Part shown: one piece after another, positions 1 through 4,669 of the stretch
How the letters are laid out: each line of letters begins with the position of its first letter
How positions within the stretch are numbered: the first letter of the stretch is position 1
Virus record (IMG/VR): IMGVR_UViG_2711768063_000004
Span: 1 to 37,205 of that record
Source: a virus
Lineage: Duplodnaviria > Heunggongvirae > Uroviricota > Caudoviricetes
Reading direction: 5' to 3' (one strand)
DNA: 37,205 nucleotides
Notes under the pieces: generated by a model
What the model saw: the letters and a program-made list of their open reading frames with translations, nothing else
Database searches by the model: none
Told to the model about the DNA's origin: nothing
Position numbers and translations under genes: made by a program

Positions 1-1053
1 TTACGGGGTAATGCCAACCGCTGCCGCCACTTTGTCGCCACTTGGCAGCGTTGCCAGAGGATTGAAACGGAGCGCCGTTTCCAGATGATCCGGTGCCAGA
101 TGAGCGTAACGCATAGTCATTTTTATATCGTGATGTCCGAGGATTTTTTGCAAAGCAAGGATATTTCCACCCGACATCATGAAATGCGCCGCAAACGTAT
201 GGCGCAGAACGTGTGTCAGTTGACCGCGAGGGAGCACGATAGACGTTTTTTCCATCACGGATAAAAATTGAAAATAGCAGTCTGTGAAGAAATTGAACCC
301 ATCAAGCGTCATGATCTCTTCGTAAAGCTCTTTACTGATAGGGATGCTTCTGTTTTTCTTCCCCTTCGTTCTTACAAAGGTAATTCGGTATTTGGTCACC
401 TGTGAACGAGTAAGATTTACGGCTTCTCGCCAGCGTGCGCCTGTGCTTAAGCATATCTTAACTACCAGTGCCAGAATTGGGTCCTGACGTTTGCAATCAG
501 CCAGCAATTCAACAATCTGCTCATGGGTAAGCCATGCCATCTCTTTTTCTGCGATGGTGAATTTTCGCATGTTCTCCAGTGGGTTCGGATACGACCATTC
601 GCCCAGGCGGGATAGTTCGCTAAAAACACTACTTAGATAGCTTTGCTCCAGATTAATGGTGACCGGGCTTGCTCCTTTCTTCCATTTCTCGCTGAAGTAG
701 ATCTCTCCTGTCAGGCGTTTATCTCGATAGTGGGCAAACATTTTAGAGGTGAGATCTGTTGCAAGGGGATTGCCCAGAGCGTCAACCATCAACAGCAATT
801 TGTCACAGACATGCCGCCCAGCGGTTAGAGATTTACCATGTAGCTTGAACCATAGCTCAACCACGTCTTTCAGTGTTCGACGATCCACTGATTCACCAAG
901 CCAGGGCTTTGCTTCGGTTTCTTCCATCGTGTGGCGCTCAAAAGCCAGAGCTTCGCCTTTGGTGGCAAATTGTTTACGCACACGGCGTCCGCTACGTCCG
1001 GCGGGGTAACATTCGCAAAGCCATTTCCCTGTGGTGAGTTTTCGTACTGCCAT
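1..1053 (-). CDS. int: Tyrosine integrase (P2/186 Int family)
   Basis: 350 aa; C-terminal catalytic region has the R...HxxR...Y pattern (LRHTFAAHF...HHDIKMTMRYAHL). Sits at the prophage end, co-oriented with the repressor as in P2/186. Stop codon is at 1..3. Confidence 0.85.
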   Translation of the reverse strand: MAVRKLTTGKWLCECYPAGRSGRRVRKQFATKGEALAFERHTMEETEAKPWLGESVDRRTLKDVVELWFKLHGKSLTAGRHVCDKLLLMVDALGNPLATDLTSKMFAHYRDKRLTGEIYFSEKWKKGASPVTINLEQSYLSSVFSELSRLGEWSYPNPLENMRKFTIAEKEMAWLTHEQIVELLADCKRQDPILALVVKICLSTGARWREAVNLTRSQVTKYRITFVRTKGKKNRSIPISKELYEEIMTLDGFNFFTDCYFQFLSVMEKTSIVLPRGQLTHVLRHTFAAHFMMSGGNILALQKILGHHDIKMTMRYAHLAPDHLETALRFNPLATLPSGDKVAAAVGITP

Positions 1054-1131: not shown

Positions 1132-1503
1132 TCATAAGTACCGATATGATTGCGGGGCCGTTATGTTATCACCTAATGAACTTAGATGAAGTGGTTGGTC
1201 ATAGATTTTTAGATTACCAATTTCTATAGCAAAGGCTTTTTCTTTGCTATGAAAATAAGAGTCAAAAAATTGTTTACTGATACCTGCGTATTGGCTTGTT
1301 TTTTCCCATACAATACTCGGCTTATCTTCTATAACATCTGCAATGTCAAATTCAGCAACAACTTTACCGACAGGCATTGTTGAATAAATAACCACAGATT
1401 TTACATCCGTTTTTTTAAAAATACCTTTCCTGAATTCAAACTTCTTCGTCCCATTAAGGATTTTTTCAACAAATTCAGGTTTTATTGACAATAATACTTT
1501 CAT
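1132..1503 (-). CDS. ASCH (PUA-like) domain protein, accessory
   Basis: 123 aa; N-terminus MKVLLSIKPEFVEKILNGTKKFEFRK is typical of ASCH domains. AT-rich; overlaps the upstream gene by 29 nt; same strand as cI and int. Confidence 0.6.
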   Translation of the reverse strand: MKVLLSIKPEFVEKILNGTKKFEFRKGIFKKTDVKSVVIYSTMPVGKVVAEFDIADVIEDKPSIVWEKTSQYAGISKQFFDSYFHSKEKAFAIEIGNLKIYDQPLHLSSLGDNITAPQSYRYL

Positions 1504-2554
1504 CTACAGCACCAAGTTTAATTATATCGTCAAATTGCTCATCGGTTAATTTAACAACACCCCAACGGTTTTTAGGATTTAAACCAATTTCTTTGATTAG
1601 TTTAGCACGGTTTATTCTTTTAGGTAAAGCTAGATTATATGTAAAACTAATAATGTAAGGGTATCTTTTTGTTTGATAGAATTTTTTTAATTCATTTTCA
1701 GAGAATACACTGTATCGTGTACAATACTGTATGAATTCTTTTTCACTATAAAAAGAATCAATATGTCTAATATCTTCAACTACACATAATGACGTTGCGA
1801 CAGAGCGATAATACGCTCTGTTTTCTTTGTCACTTGTTCTGTAAATAACTAAAATGTCATGTCTTTTTATTTTTTTTACGTCATGCATTCTGCATATATA
1901 TATTTTTCTAATGCTATTCGCATGAGATACATCCGTGATTATATCAGGGGACTCTGTGGTGAGTATCGAATCAGGAAACAGTTTTGTATGGAATTCAGGA
2001 TATATGGATAACAGATATTTGTTTTCATCGTTTCTATTATTTATATACGGATAATCAGACAAAATATCCCCTGTAAGATGATTTTTATTCATCTCTCTTA
2101 CTAAGACTTGTTCACTCCCATTAGCAGTTTGTTTTGTAGCAACATGAATAAAACCATAAATTTTGAATAGTCTAATTAAATAATCATGTTTTTCAAAAAC
2201 AGTCACATAGATATCATCTACTTTTTCTTTTAGTGCATGATCAAAAATCTTTTTGAGGAATCTTTGTCCTCGTAGAGTCCCCTTTGGGTTGAATTTAAAT
2301 GTGCCTATTTTTAGATGTTTAGCACGAGTCAAAGGTGGTATTACGTCGTCAATAATACCACGCTCAATTTTCAAGTATAAAAAACCATCAATTGTGTTGT
2401 CATCATTATATAAGACATAAGCTTTTTCTTCGATAGAATTACATTTTTTATTGAACCAATCGATAAATCCATGTTGATAGTCTTTTTTTAAGGAGTCAAA
2501 AAAAACATCGTTAAAATTAACTTCATTAAACTGAATGTGTTTTAATTTTTCCAT
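1475..2554 (-). CDS. Putative GNAT-like acetyltransferase N-domain fused to an ASCH-like C-domain, accessory
   Basis: 359 aa. N-half shows a GNAT-like pattern (IDGFLYLKIE...KIGTFKF...LRGQRFLKKIFDHA...IYVTVF...YGF). C-half restarts with an ASCH-like motif (KYLLSIYPEFHTKLF...RHDILVIYRT). Domain calls are by eye only. Confidence 0.5.
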   Translation of the reverse strand: MEKLKHIQFNEVNFNDVFFDSLKKDYQHGFIDWFNKKCNSIEEKAYVLYNDDNTIDGFLYLKIERGIIDDVIPPLTRAKHLKIGTFKFNPKGTLRGQRFLKKIFDHALKEKVDDIYVTVFEKHDYLIRLFKIYGFIHVATKQTANGSEQVLVREMNKNHLTGDILSDYPYINNRNDENKYLLSIYPEFHTKLFPDSILTTESPDIITDVSHANSIRKIYICRMHDVKKIKRHDILVIYRTSDKENRAYYRSVATSLCVVEDIRHIDSFYSEKEFIQYCTRYSVFSENELKKFYQTKRYPYIISFTYNLALPKRINRAKLIKEIGLNPKNRWGVVKLTDEQFDDIIKLGAVDESIIVNKT

Positions 2555-3687
2555 TTTTTCACCAGTGCAATAAAGTTGGATAATTTTTGTGGTTTAATAA
2601 AGTGAGCGGCAATGTAAGCTACAATAAATGCAATGGTGCAAATTAGATAAATGTCTTTATGCACACCATCTGTTGGAATAAATTTCATTATGTATGCTAT
2701 GGCTGCAGCATAGAACATATATGTAAATATTTTACTAATTTTTGATTTAGTAGTCTTGAACTTCACTACTACAGAGAAGTCACCTAGCCGTGCGCCATCA
2801 TCCTTTTTAGCTTTCCAGTGGTAAATCATAGGATCGTTCTTACCAAAATTGACATTATTTGAAAAGTATTTTTTCCATGTCTCTGATTCAAGAATACGAC
2901 AACCTTGATAGCTTGAACCTGATGCCGATGCTTCGTCAACCATATCTCGTATAACGAAAAAATGATATTTGCTTGGAGTGCAAGAGGCGCTGGCCAGTGT
3001 GGTTGCGACTTCGTTTGGCAAATTTCTTTGTTCGTTAATTCTGAAATCTATAATATCAGAACGTTCAATATTGCTTTTTAAGAATAAATCTTTGGGATAG
3101 AATGTTTTAACAATTGCTTCAACATCAGATTCATTTAGGTTAATTCTGAATCTGATGTAGTAATTGCAATCATTGCAATTATTGCAATTATTGCAATTAT
3201 TGCAATTAGACAAACAATCCTGCAGATGGAAAAATACATATGTCCCATCATTCCTCTTTCTCAATGTGATTCTTTTGTCGAATGCCCCCCCTTGAAAATC
3301 AAGTTTTGTATTAACTATTAGTTTACCTTTTCGTGTTAAATTTAATAATAAGTGTTTCTCGTTTATTGAGTCTTTATTTATGACGTATTCATTAAAAACC
3401 GCGGTGATCAGTTCTTTGCTGCTATCTAGGTTCGTGCTTAAATCAATGAAGTCATCTTTTTCTTTTACAAACGGTAAAAATAAACAGATTGCACCCTGTT
3501 CTGAAATTTCATTATTTTGGGGGCGAGAAAATGATATGCCAAAATCTAGATGATAGCATTTTTGGGATGTGATATTCCAAAAGTTGATGTGTAGTTCGTT
3601 TATAAAATCTGCTTGAGTCTCATTATAATCCTCTCCTGGGCCTTTAGCGTAGTTTCGACATCCCCAAATAGCAAAACTTCTAGACAT
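2542..3687 (-). CDS. Membrane-anchored hypothetical protein with Cys-x-x repeat, accessory
   Basis: 381 aa; two hydrophobic helices at the C-terminus (IFTYMFYAAAIAYIMKF, IYLICTIAFIVAYIAAHFI); internal CNNCNNCNNCNDCN encoded by a 9-bp tandem repeat; AT-rich; starts 31 bp downstream of the cI stop. Confidence 0.55.
   Translation of the reverse strand: MSRSFAIWGCRNYAKGPGEDYNETQADFINELHINFWNITSQKCYHLDFGISFSRPQNNEISEQGAICLFLPFVKEKDDFIDLSTNLDSSKELITAVFNEYVINKDSINEKHLLLNLTRKGKLIVNTKLDFQGGAFDKRITLRKRNDGTYVFFHLQDCLSNCNNCNNCNNCNDCNYYIRFRINLNESDVEAIVKTFYPKDLFLKSNIERSDIIDFRINEQRNLPNEVATTLASASCTPSKYHFFVIRDMVDEASASGSSYQGCRILESETWKKYFSNNVNFGKNDPMIYHWKAKKDDGARLGDFSVVVKFKTTKSKISKIFTYMFYAAAIAYIMKFIPTDGVHKDIYLICTIAFIVAYIAAHFIKPQKLSNFIALVKKWKN
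3163..3207. repeat. Five tandem copies of 9-bp unit ATTGCAAT(T/C) inside the CDS
   Basis: attgcaatc then attgcaatt x4, read directly. ATTGCAAT is itself an 8-bp palindrome. In-frame (3 codons per unit), encoding a Cys-Asn-Asn repeat on the minus strand. Confidence 0.9.
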
Positions 3688-3718: not shown

Positions 3719-4669
3719 TTATATTATAGTCATTAGGTTGAACTGGCATTTTGCAACCGGTTTGAGTTCATTAATTGCACAGTCAAAAGTAATATTTGAG
3801 TTTGAGCTCGTTACTCTTACTTTACCTACCGGTATTCTTATTACCTCGCGAACACTGATTTTTCCTTCAATTTCAACAAACCACAATCCATCGCTAATTT
3901 CGTCAAATTTCCCCTCAGCTAAGTATATCCTGCTGCCATCAAATATTAACATTGGATCTTTAATCGACTTAGGTACAAAGGACTTATCAAAAATGTAGTT
4001 ACCCTTCCTTTCGAGTGCACCATCGGCAAGCACGTACTTGTTTATGCACACAATGTTTTCATTTTGTGAACTTTTATTAAGTCCTTGCCCATCAACAAGC
4101 CATTTCAATGAGAATCCAGTTTCAAGGGCACACTGTATTATCCAATCAGCAGGGAATGAGTCACGCATATAGCGTGTAGCTAATGTACTTTTTGATATAC
4201 CAAGATGATCTGCCAGTGCTTGACGAGTTTTAAAGCCATAAGCCTTAACTATCCGTTCTATTGCCGCTTTTCCTCCCTGATTGAAATCGACTTGATGATC
4301 ATTATGAAAATTAAAGGAAGGTATATGATTGTCACTTTCAACGTCATCTCGCTGGTCGTCTTCGTTGTCTCCATTTGGAACAGTTGAGAGTATTTCTTCT
4401 GCCGCATCAGAACCAAACGCCAGCCATTCCAAAGATGCTCCTGTTTCCATTGAGCATATAACAACCCAATCAGCAGGAAATGTATCGCGAGCATATCTAT
4501 TGGCCATCGTACTTTGTGAAATACCAAGATGGTTACAGAACGCTTGGCGTGACTTGAAGCCATAAGCTTTGAGTATTCGCTCAATGACTTTCTGTCCCCC
4601 ACGATTCTGCATAACAATGGCTTTCGCATCCTCTTTGATATGGCGAAATGTGAATTTTTGAGTTGACAT
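3719..4669 (-). CDS. cI: 186 CI-type immunity repressor with duplicated N-terminal DNA-binding domain
   Basis: 316 aa. Two paralogous N-terminal modules (ERILKAYGFKSRQAFCNHLGISQSTMANRYARDTFPADWVVICSMETGASLEWL and ERIVKAYGFKTRQALADHLGISKSTLATRYMRDSFPADWIIQCALETGFSLKWL), then a C-terminal region with the 186 CI-like motif SDGLWFVEIEG. Divergent from the apl/cox-like gene. Confidence 0.75.
   Translation of the reverse strand: MSTQKFTFRHIKEDAKAIVMQNRGGQKVIERILKAYGFKSRQAFCNHLGISQSTMANRYARDTFPADWVVICSMETGASLEWLAFGSDAAEEILSTVPNGDNEDDQRDDVESDNHIPSFNFHNDHQVDFNQGGKAAIERIVKAYGFKTRQALADHLGISKSTLATRYMRDSFPADWIIQCALETGFSLKWLVDGQGLNKSSQNENIVCINKYVLADGALERKGNYIFDKSFVPKSIKDPMLIFDGSRIYLAEGKFDEISDGLWFVEIEGKISVREVIRIPVGKVRVTSSNSNITFDCAINELKPVAKCQFNLMTII

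What the first reader, a model, noticed from the sequence alone, without database searches (positions are those of the whole stretch)
3163..3207. In-frame 9-bp tandem repeat of a palindromic unit encoding a Cys-x-x repeat
Five copies of ATTGCAAT(T/C) sit inside the membrane-protein gene and encode ...CNNCNNCNNCNDCN.... Each unit contains the 8-bp palindrome ATTGCAAT. Because the unit is 3 codons, slipped-strand changes in copy number would alter the length of a cysteine ladder (potential metal-binding or disulfide element) without breaking the frame. This could be a variable region of a lysogen-expressed protein.
Basis: seen in the sequence. Interest (0 to 1): 0.45.

Follow-up and report, generated by a model that had tools for sequence, protein, structure and literature searches.

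The report
Variable palindromic 9-bp repeat in prophage gene
A real, fast-changing 9-base repeat (3 to 5 copies among E. coli isolates) adds a Cys-Asn-x ladder to a floppy loop of a prophage membrane protein; relatives of the protein lack the ladder, so it looks like an ordinary mutation-driven repeat polymorphism, not a conserved metal or disulfide site.

Summary
Five head-to-tail ATTGCAAT(T/C) units lie at 3163-3207, in frame in a 381-aa minus-strand gene, and encode NCN-NCN-NCN-NCN-DCN (residues 161-175).

Near-identical E. coli prophages carry 3, 4 or 5 units, giving 10 alleles. The 4.6 kb around the array differs by only about 2.8 SNPs per pair.

The functional reading does not hold.
- Relatives at 81% identity or less have a single unit (KSNHCNHY).
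- The wider family (931 representatives, no Pfam model) has a loop of 7-44 residues here, with no conserved cysteine.
- The loop has low confidence in the AlphaFold model and probably faces the reducing cytoplasm.

Because the unit is an 8-bp palindrome plus one spacer base, the array is a 48-bp quasi-palindrome that folds into a strong hairpin. Two natural alleles are perfect palindromes of 37 and 46-48 bp. This probably promotes slippage. Template-switch "palindrome correction" is possible, but the alleles do not require it.

The gene heads a low-GC cassette (gene X, then PDC-M11A, then PDC-M11B) between cI and int of a 186-like prophage. The trio recurs in distant bacteria.

Verdict: a new example of a known kind, an in-frame variable-number repeat. 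Interest is modest.

The parts
3163..3207 (-). In-frame 9-bp tandem array, 5 units. On the coding strand it reads AAT TGC AAT [xAT TGC AAT]x4 and encodes N161-N175 (NCN NCN NCN NCN DCN).
3161..3208 (.). 48-bp quasi-palindrome made by the array plus one flanking base pair on each side. It consists of 8-bp palindromic cores separated by single spacer bases.
   Evidence: 24-nt arms, 92% complementary. (single-stranded DNA hairpin -15.5 kcal/mol, z -4.2). (RNA -23 kcal/mol, z -2.7).
2542..3687 (-). Gene X, 381 aa. It has a beta-rich N-terminal domain (residues 1-312) and C-terminal hydrophobic helices. It belongs to a large family with no Pfam, PADLOC, NCBIfam or PDB-sequence match.
2596..2733 (-). 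Predicted membrane hairpin of X, residues about 319-337 and 345-364.
   Evidence: helices 317-335, 344-363. (hydropathy).
1475..2554 (-). PDC-M11A homologue, 359 aa. Its start overlaps the end of X by 13 bp.
   Evidence: PDLC04419, E 4.6e-139..
1132..1503 (-). PDC-M11B homologue, 123 aa, with an ASCH domain. It overlaps gene A by 29 bp.
   Evidence: PDLC04425, E 1.9e-49. (ASCH, E 1e-5).
3719..4669 (-). 186-type CI repressor, 316 aa, 31 bp upstream of X on the same strand.
   Evidence: Phage_CI_repr E 5.3e-60; Phage_CI_C E 1.7e-25.
1..1053 (-). Phage integrase, 350 aa, 78 bp downstream of the cassette on the same strand.
   Evidence: PF00589 in the identical locus L001.

Best explanation
The feature is a young in-frame minisatellite, a coding variable-number tandem repeat. 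It changes length by gain and loss of 9-bp units during replication.

Relatives carry one copy of the unit (AAT-xAx-TGC-AAT). In one E. coli prophage lineage a few substitutions made a second adjacent copy, and slippage then expanded it to 3-5 units.

Each unit is an 8-bp palindrome plus one spacer base. The single-stranded array therefore folds back on itself into a long, nearly perfect hairpin. Such a hairpin should stabilise slipped intermediates and make the site especially unstable (inferred).

The unit is three codons, so every change stays in frame and only lengthens or shortens a Cys-Asn-x ladder. The ladder sits in a surface loop between two beta strands of the cytoplasmic domain of protein X. 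In this family that loop tolerates almost any length and sequence. The variation is therefore most likely mutation-driven and tolerated, not a conserved functional device.

X is the first gene of a low-GC cassette, X then PDC-M11A then PDC-M11B. PDC-M11 is an untested candidate anti-phage system. The cassette is inserted between cI and int of a 186-like prophage and is probably co-transcribed with them in the lysogen (inferred).
For: Shown:
- The array and its reading frame.
- Ten alleles with 3, 4 or 5 units among proteins of one 90% cluster. Most were seen in several independent assemblies: P0031 in 56 index blocks, P0032 on 19 contigs, P0034 on 9, P0036 on 7, P0001 on 4, P0038 on 3.
- Flank diversity is very low. 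There are 9 SNP columns and a mean of 2.8 pairwise differences in 4,608 bp (pi 0.0006). Yet 8 array alleles occur in 11 loci, and ten pairs with at most 1 flank SNP differ in the array.
- All 8 core bases are identical in every unit of every allele. Only unit number and the spacer base vary.
- Relatives from Klebsiella, Raoultella and Enterobacter, and from Citrobacter, at 78-81% identity have one unit: AAT CAT TGC AAT CAT or AAT GAA TGC AAT CAC.
- Predicted hairpin strength rises with array length and symmetry: -0.2 kcal/mol for the single unit, -7.7 for the AAAT 3-unit allele, -15.5 for the window, -19.0 and -22.4 for the two perfect palindromes. None of 200 shuffles folds as well as any array allele.
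- The loop from C158 to Y177 is 7-44 residues long (median 12) in 71 family members, with no conserved Cys. Model pLDDT is 57 there, against 86-92 in the blocks either side.
- Operon layout and the absence of a minus-strand terminator-like site between cI and int. Cassette GC is 32% against 50% for the window.
- The same cI-X-A-B-int layout occurs in Klebsiella, Citrobacter, Raoultella, Scandinavium and Brenneria.

From the literature: hairpin-forming repeats stall polymerases and are unstable (PMC7441554), and in-frame repeat copy number can be phase-variable in bacteria (PMC12817950).
Against: - No rate was measured. All evidence is comparison of assemblies, mostly short-read drafts.
- The role of the hairpin in instability is inferred from predicted folding only.
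- Neutrality is inferred from the absence of the ladder in relatives. A lineage-specific function such as metal binding cannot be excluded.
- No allele with fewer than 3 or more than 5 units was seen among those listed. That could reflect selection on length. Only 15 of the 36 cluster members were shown.
- Co-transcription with cI and int was not tested.
Confidence: 0.7

Rival explanations
1. Adaptive variable region. The length and composition (N/D/H/Y) of the Cys ladder tune the function of protein X, and the repeat is kept as a contingency device. The ladder could act as a cytoplasmic metal or Fe-S binding loop, or as a surface recognised by phage proteins.
For: - Many alleles sit on near-identical backgrounds.
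- All alleles are in frame, with 3-5 units only.
- The variable third residue is N, D, H or Y, and D and H are metal ligands.
- CxxCxxC spacing resembles Fe-S and zinc motifs (own knowledge).
- X diverges faster than its partners: 56-79% identity against 70-79% for A and 81-89% for B. That pattern fits a specificity component.
- An unrelated phage ORF carries a long, codon-diverged CxxC ladder (L028).
Against: - The ladder is absent from all homologues at 81% identity or less.
- The loop is hypervariable family-wide, with no conserved Cys.
- No Pfam or PDB metal-binding family matches.
- The third-residue variants are exactly the four possible bases at one spacer position. Unit shuffling, an ancestral His codon and the flanking T largely explain them.
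- In-frame length is automatic for a 9-bp unit.
Confidence: 0.15
2. The array is a functional element at the nucleic-acid level. It could be repeated binding sites for a protein, an mRNA hairpin that modulates translation or stability of the X-A-B message, or an internal promoter created by the periodic TTGCAA and AATAAT motifs that drives the downstream PDC-M11 genes.
For: - The scan finds a promoter-like site inside the array on the coding strand: TTGCAA, 16 nt, AATAAT, preceded by TG; 9 of 12 matches.
- The mRNA hairpin is predicted at -23 kcal/mol, z -2.7.
- A similar three-unit array lies in an intergenic region of an unrelated viral contig (L027).
Against: - Promoter-like hits in this AT-rich region are not significantly enriched (23 against 16.7 +/- 3.8).
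- Relatives run the same operon without the array.
- The only other ATTGCAAT in the window is a single site, consistent with chance.
- Alleles with Asp codons change the putative -10 hexamer.
Confidence: 0.07
3. The copy-number and spacer differences are sequencing or assembly artefacts at a hairpin-forming repeat.
For: - Most source assemblies are short-read drafts.
- Several partial proteins of the cluster end at contig edges inside this gene, one of them inside the array (P0043).
Against: - The array is only 27-45 bp, shorter than a read.
- The same alleles recur in independent samples and sources, both NCBI and Logan assemblies.
- Alleles follow the flank SNP haplotypes.
Confidence: 0.03

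Closest known systems
In-frame coding tandem repeats (variable-number repeats, contingency-type loci) in bacterial genes, for example the phase-variable repeat copy number in M. tuberculosis (PMC12817950)
   Same: Head-to-tail units whose length is a multiple of three. Copy number differs between very close strains while the frame is kept. The presumed mechanism is replication slippage.
   Different: Here the unit is itself a palindrome, so the array is also a long inverted repeat. The gene is a prophage cargo gene, not a surface antigen. No switching rate or phenotype is known.
Quasi-palindrome mutational hotspots resolved by template switching (Ripley model; E. coli thyA hotspot and lacZ QP reporters, PMC7202029)
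   Same: An imperfect inverted repeat whose only mismatches are the spacer bases. All polymorphic bases are those spacers. Two natural alleles are perfect palindromes (L009 at 37 bp, L011 at 46-48 bp).
   Different: Outgroup polarisation puts one perfect-palindrome allele (L009) on the ancestral flank haplotype and the less symmetric window allele on the most derived one. The C spacer matches an ancestral His codon, and a T spacer can come from duplicating the last unit with its flanking T. Templated correction is therefore not required. A permutation argument gives only about p = 0.05 at best.
Hairpin-forming triplet repeats (CTG/CAG type) and structured short tandem repeats that stall polymerases (PMC7441554; bioRxiv 10.1101/2024.06.04.597286)
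   Same: A repeat whose single strands fold into hairpins, which are thought to promote expansion and contraction.
   Different: The unit is 9 bp with perfect 8-bp stems and single mismatches. The array is very short (3-5 units). It is bacterial and coding.
CxxC-based metal sites (zinc ribbons and knuckles; ferredoxin-type CxxCxxC)
   Same: Cys-x-x-Cys spacing repeated four times. The location is probably cytoplasmic.
   Different: The cysteines are not conserved in homologues, there is no family match, and the structure prediction is low-confidence.
PDC-M11, a two-gene 'phage defence candidate' in PADLOC-DB, derived by guilt-by-embedding and untested (bioRxiv 10.1101/2024.01.29.577857)
   Same: The two genes downstream of X match the PDC-M11A and PDC-M11B models strongly.
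   Different: The PADLOC definition has no model for X. X precedes A and B in all Enterobacterales relatives examined, and also in distant non-prophage loci where X is about 28% identical. A different E. coli prophage lineage has an unrelated 260-aa gene in that slot.

Membership tests
In-frame coding variable-number tandem repeat | Head-to-tail copies of a unit whose length is a multiple of 3, lying inside an ORF | tested here: met
   Period 9, 5.1 copies, 97% matches, inside ORF 2542..3687 on the minus strand.
In-frame coding variable-number tandem repeat | Copy number differs among closely related genomes while the flanks stay the same | tested here: met
   3, 4 or 5 units. 8 array alleles in 11 loci, with flank pi of 0.0006.
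In-frame coding variable-number tandem repeat | High, reversible switching rate within a clonal population | not testable with these tools
   This needs fluctuation tests or deep sequencing of cultures.
ON/OFF phase-variable contingency gene | A repeat unit not divisible by 3, or a repeat in a promoter, so that slippage switches expression on and off | tested here: not met
   The unit is 9 bp and all alleles give full-length proteins of 375-381 aa.
Quasi-palindrome template-switch hotspot | An imperfect inverted repeat able to form a hairpin | tested here: met
   24-nt arms, 92% complementary. Single-stranded DNA fold -15.5 kcal/mol, z -4.2.
Quasi-palindrome template-switch hotspot | Mutations that convert mismatches into complements of the opposite arm | tested here: inconclusive
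   Every C or T spacer is complementary to its mirror spacer (L008-L011). However, polarised haplotypes, the ancestral CAT codon in Klebsiella and duplication of the flanking T explain these without templating.
Quasi-palindrome template-switch hotspot | Dependence on replication and on exonucleases (ExoI, ExoVII), as in the reporter assays | not testable with these tools
   This is a genetic experiment.
CxxC metal-binding motif (zinc or Fe-S) | Ligand cysteines conserved across homologues | tested here: not met
   The ladder is absent at 81% identity or less, and the loop has no conserved Cys in 71 family members.
CxxC metal-binding motif (zinc or Fe-S) | A match to a known metal-binding domain family or solved structure | tested here: not met
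CxxC metal-binding motif (zinc or Fe-S) | Bound metal in the purified protein | not testable with these tools
   This is a biochemical experiment.
PDC-M11 candidate defence system (PADLOC) | Adjacent genes matching the PDC-M11A and PDC-M11B models | tested here: met
   E 4.6e-139 and E 1.9e-49. The genes overlap.
PDC-M11 candidate defence system (PADLOC) | Demonstrated anti-phage activity | not testable with these tools
   The source paper describes the PDC systems as untested candidates.

The most novel reading that the evidence does not exclude
The palindromic unit makes this array a self-templating diversity generator. Unit slippage changes the ladder length. Intra-hairpin template switching rewrites the single spacer base, which is the first base of the third codon and gives N, D, H or Y. 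Together they diversify a loop of the sensor or effector protein of a three-gene anti-phage system (X with PDC-M11A and PDC-M11B), and selection by phages maintains the device.
Probability: 0.1. Interest if true: 0.55.

Novelty: new member of a known kind. Interest (0 to 1): 0.3.

Why it matters
As it stands this is a clean natural example of how a coding minisatellite is born from a single palindromic 9-mer and then varies among isolates. It could serve as a fine-scale typing marker for this prophage lineage.

It would matter more in two cases. The first is if the ladder proved to bind metal or to alter defence specificity. The second is if the perfect-palindrome alleles proved to be products of template switching; that would be a natural case of combined slippage and quasi-palindrome mutagenesis acting on one protein loop.

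The surrounding result may be more useful than the repeat itself. A large family with no annotation (931 representatives at 50% identity) is repeatedly found as the first gene of the PDC-M11 candidate operon.

Tried and rejected
1. Family assignment of protein X failed. Pfam, PADLOC, NCBIfam, PHROGs and PDB sequence profiles gave nothing, for X or for 71 family members.
3. tblastn of X against 50,697 phage records found no match. None of the 5,426 complete E. coli genomes carries the array-bearing gene; 7 genomes have a relative at 72% identity over 39% of the gene.
4. The search for more alleles yielded little. One JGI/ENA metagenome contig carried a 3-unit allele already known, and IMG/VR had none.
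5. I first read the spacer pattern as stepwise palindrome-perfecting template switches (note). I downgraded this after three findings. Outgroups place the ancestral flank haplotype with alleles L009 and L010 and make the window clade the most derived. The C spacer equals the Klebsiella His codon. The T spacer of L010 arises simply by duplicating the last unit with its flanking T.
6. The search for related loci with the deep alignment failed for lack of a conserved stretch. The closer alignment gave only three species-representative loci.
7. One literature search failed on a too-short term.

Full report
**1. The observation**

Tandem Repeats Finder reports 3163-3208, period 9, 5.1 copies, 97% matches and score 85, the strongest array in the window. 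The plus strand reads ATTGCAATC followed by four copies of ATTGCAATT.

The 8-bp palindrome ATTGCAAT occurs six times in 37 kb, against 1.58 +/- 1.27 expected. Five of the six are the array.

The array lies in ORF 2542..3687 on the minus strand (381 aa). On that strand it reads AAT TGC AAT (AAT TGC AAT)x3 GAT TGC AAT and encodes N161-N175, with Cys at 162, 165, 168, 171 and 174.

Because each unit is a palindrome plus one base, the whole array is a 48-bp quasi-palindrome (3161-3208, 24-nt arms, 92% complementary).

**2. The gene and its neighbourhood**

The window is a 186/P2-like prophage. The layout on the minus strand is:
- integrase at 1-1053;
- a 123-aa ASCH protein at 1132-1503;
- a 359-aa protein at 1475-2554;
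- the 381-aa protein, called X here, at 2542-3687;
- a 186-type CI repressor at 3719-4669.

The early lytic genes (a CP76/cII-like gene, a Dam-type methylase and the gpA replication protein) lie on the plus strand.

The 359-aa and 123-aa proteins match PADLOC models PDC-M11A (E 4.6e-139) and PDC-M11B (E 1.9e-49). The PDC systems are untested 'phage defence candidates' found by guilt-by-embedding (bioRxiv 10.1101/2024.01.29.577857).

X overlaps A by 13 bp, and A overlaps B by 29 bp. The gaps to cI and int are 31 and 78 bp. No terminator-like site lies on the minus strand. The cassette has 32% GC against 50% for the window. From this I infer a horizontally acquired cargo cassette sitting inside the lysogenic cI-to-int transcription unit. 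That phage 186 transcribes cI and int from its lysogenic promoter is my own knowledge and was not tested here.

**3. Protein X**

X has no match in Pfam, PADLOC, NCBIfam, PHROGs or PDB sequences. Yet it belongs to a large family, with 931 representatives at 50% identity and E <= 0.001.

The AlphaFold model has mean pLDDT 78 and pTM 0.74. It shows a beta-rich domain (residues 1-312) followed by helices at 317-335, 344-363 and 366-380. The segment at 345-364 is strongly hydrophobic.

There is no signal-like N-terminus, and basic residues flank both hydrophobic helices. The large domain is therefore probably cytoplasmic (inference).

**4. Does copy number vary?**

Yes. The 90% cluster around X contains E. 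coli proteins of 375, 378 and 381 aa whose only length difference is 3, 4 or 5 Cys units. I fetched DNA for eight of the ten alleles.

Written on the coding strand, the array is A[P]x[P]x...[P]T, where P is ATTGCAAT and x is the spacer base. The spacer strings, including the flanking A and T, are:

| Units | Spacer string | Source |
|---|---|---|
| 3 | AAGT | L003-5, L016 |
| 3 | AAAT | L006-7 |
| 4 | AAGGT | L001-2 |
| 4 | AAAGT | P0035, inferred from the protein |
| 4 | ACAGT | L009 |
| 5 | AAAAGT | the window |
| 5 | AAAGGT | P0033, inferred from the protein |
| 5 | AAATGT | L008 |
| 5 | AAAGTT | L010 |
| 5 | ACATGT | L011 |

The eight core bases never vary in any unit of any allele.

Most alleles recur in several independent assemblies, so artefact is unlikely.

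Across 4,608 flanking bp (cI to int), the 11 loci show 9 SNP columns and a mean of 2.8 pairwise differences. They carry 8 array alleles, and ten pairs with at most 1 flank SNP differ in the array. The array therefore evolves much faster than its surroundings.

**5. Is the cysteine ladder conserved?**

No.
- The nearest relatives, at 78-81% identity, come from Klebsiella, Raoultella and Enterobacter, and from Citrobacter. They read ...CLSKSN[H/Q/E]CNHY..., with one unit at the DNA level: AAT CAT TGC AAT CAT, or AAT GAA TGC AAT CAC.
- More distant Enterobacterales homologues have at most one Cys in the loop, and several have none.
- In 71 members of the wider family, the segment from C158 to the invariant Y177 is 7-44 residues long (median 12), polar, and has no conserved Cys.
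- In the model the ladder has pLDDT 57, against 86-92 in the blocks either side.

The ladder is a recent, lineage-specific expansion in an insertion-tolerant loop. A few substitutions in the relatives' sequence (AAA to AAT, TCT to TGC, GAA to GAT, CAC to TAC) would create two adjacent units, from which slippage could start. This birth path is an inference.

**6. Mechanism**

Unit gain and loss by slipped-strand mispairing accounts for nearly all the allele differences.

The palindromic unit adds hairpin potential. Predicted single-stranded DNA folding energies are:

| Allele | Energy (kcal/mol) | z-score |
|---|---|---|
| Single unit (Klebsiella relative) | -0.2 | +1.2 |
| 3-unit allele (L006, AAAT) | -7.7 | -3.0 |
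| Window allele, 5 units | -15.5 | -4.2 |
| L008, 5 units | -18.4 | -6.0 |
| L009, perfect 37-bp palindrome | -19.0 | -8.3 |
| L011, perfect 46-48-bp palindrome | -22.4 | -8.2 |

Hairpin-forming repeats are known to stall polymerases and to be unstable (PMC7441554), so a contribution of the hairpin is plausible but not shown.

I also considered quasi-palindrome template switching (PMC7202029), because every C or T spacer is complementary to its mirror spacer. Three things weaken this.
- Outgroup polarisation of the four informative flank SNPs puts the ancestral haplotype with L009 and L010 and makes the window clade the most derived.
- The C spacer equals the His codon of the Klebsiella relative.
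- The T spacer of L010 arises by duplicating the last unit with its flanking T.

Only the internal T of L008 and L011 needs either a substitution or two slippage steps. My own permutation estimate gives about p = 0.05 at best. I put template switching at roughly 0.2.

**7. Is X part of the PDC-M11 system?**

The order X-A-B, with overlapping genes, recurs in Klebsiella, Citrobacter, Raoultella, Scandinavium and Brenneria prophages.

It also recurs, with X about 28% identical, in unrelated non-prophage contexts. There the A protein is longer (496-501 aa) and the ASCH protein is 122-131 aa. Both were confirmed as PDC-M11A and PDC-M11B.

However, another E. coli 186-like prophage lineage carries an unrelated 260-aa gene in the X slot. 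X is thus a frequent but replaceable first gene. It also diverges faster than its partners: 56-79% identity for X, 70-79% for A and 81-89% for B.

**8. Comparison with known kinds and verdict**

The feature meets the definition of an in-frame coding variable-number repeat. It does not meet that of an ON/OFF phase-variation tract, nor of a conserved CxxC metal site. It has the anatomy of a quasi-palindrome hotspot, but the diagnostic mutation pattern is inconclusive.

Its metal or disulfide idea is not supported, though it is not excluded for this lineage.

This is a new member of a known kind. Its one unusual feature is the palindromic unit, which yields perfect-palindrome alleles. Interest is about 0.3.

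Noticed in passing
window 1132-3687 (minus strand); loci L012-L026: Protein X belongs to a large family with no annotation: 931 representatives at 50% identity and no Pfam, PADLOC, NCBIfam or PDB-sequence match. It repeatedly sits as the first, overlapping gene of the PDC-M11A/B candidate defence operon, including distant non-prophage loci where X is about 28% identical. PDC-M11 may really be a three-gene system. One E. coli prophage lineage (L029) has an unrelated 260-aa gene in that slot.
   Followed up: partly
window 3719-4669 (minus strand): The CI repressor here is 316 aa with two Phage_CI_repr helix-turn-helix stretches. CI in the Klebsiella and Citrobacter relatives is 190 aa. Residues 9-86 and 127-316 both align to the same region of those loci. 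This suggests a tandem duplication of the N-terminal DNA-binding domain.
   Followed up: partly
window 3122-3133 and 3147-3158: A perfect 12-bp inverted repeat (ACATCAGATTCA / TGAATCTGATGT, 13-nt loop) lies inside the coding sequence, starting 4 bp from the array. It covers the codons for the conserved YIRFR...ESDV segment. Its conservation in relatives was not checked.
   Followed up: no
L028 11060-11515: An unrelated viral contig encodes a 151-aa ORF with a long, codon-diverged Cys-x-x ladder (CNNCINCNNCNNCNQCNDCIDCINCNNCNYCNCCNRCDNCNYCKEC), built largely from the same xAT-TGC-AAT unit. It has no Pfam match. The same palindromic 9-mer has apparently expanded independently elsewhere.
   Followed up: partly
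L027 4756-4815: A three-unit ATTGCAATG/C array, with more degenerate units upstream, lies in the intergenic gap just after a tape-measure gene stop (4755) in another viral contig. There the repeat is non-coding.
   Followed up: no
window 3178-3205 (minus strand): The periodic TTGCAA and AATAAT motifs of the array form a promoter-like site (16-nt spacer, TG before the -10 hexamer, 9 of 12 matches), pointing toward the PDC-M11 genes. Promoter-like hits are not significantly enriched in this AT-rich region.
   Followed up: no
proteins P0037, P0039, P0041-P0044 (cluster of X): Six partial N-terminal fragments of X come from contig ends in E. coli draft assemblies. Five end 40-70 codons before the array and one (P0043) ends inside it. 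This may reflect assembly or coverage problems near the AT-rich hairpin region.
   Followed up: no
L012/L013 2748-4839 and 9631-10437: In Klebsiella the same cI-X-A-B cassette sits in a decayed prophage remnant. It lies next to an AAA_15/AAA_21 ATPase with a DUF4435 gene pair and a putAbiC gene, so the locus has the character of a defence island.
   Followed up: no
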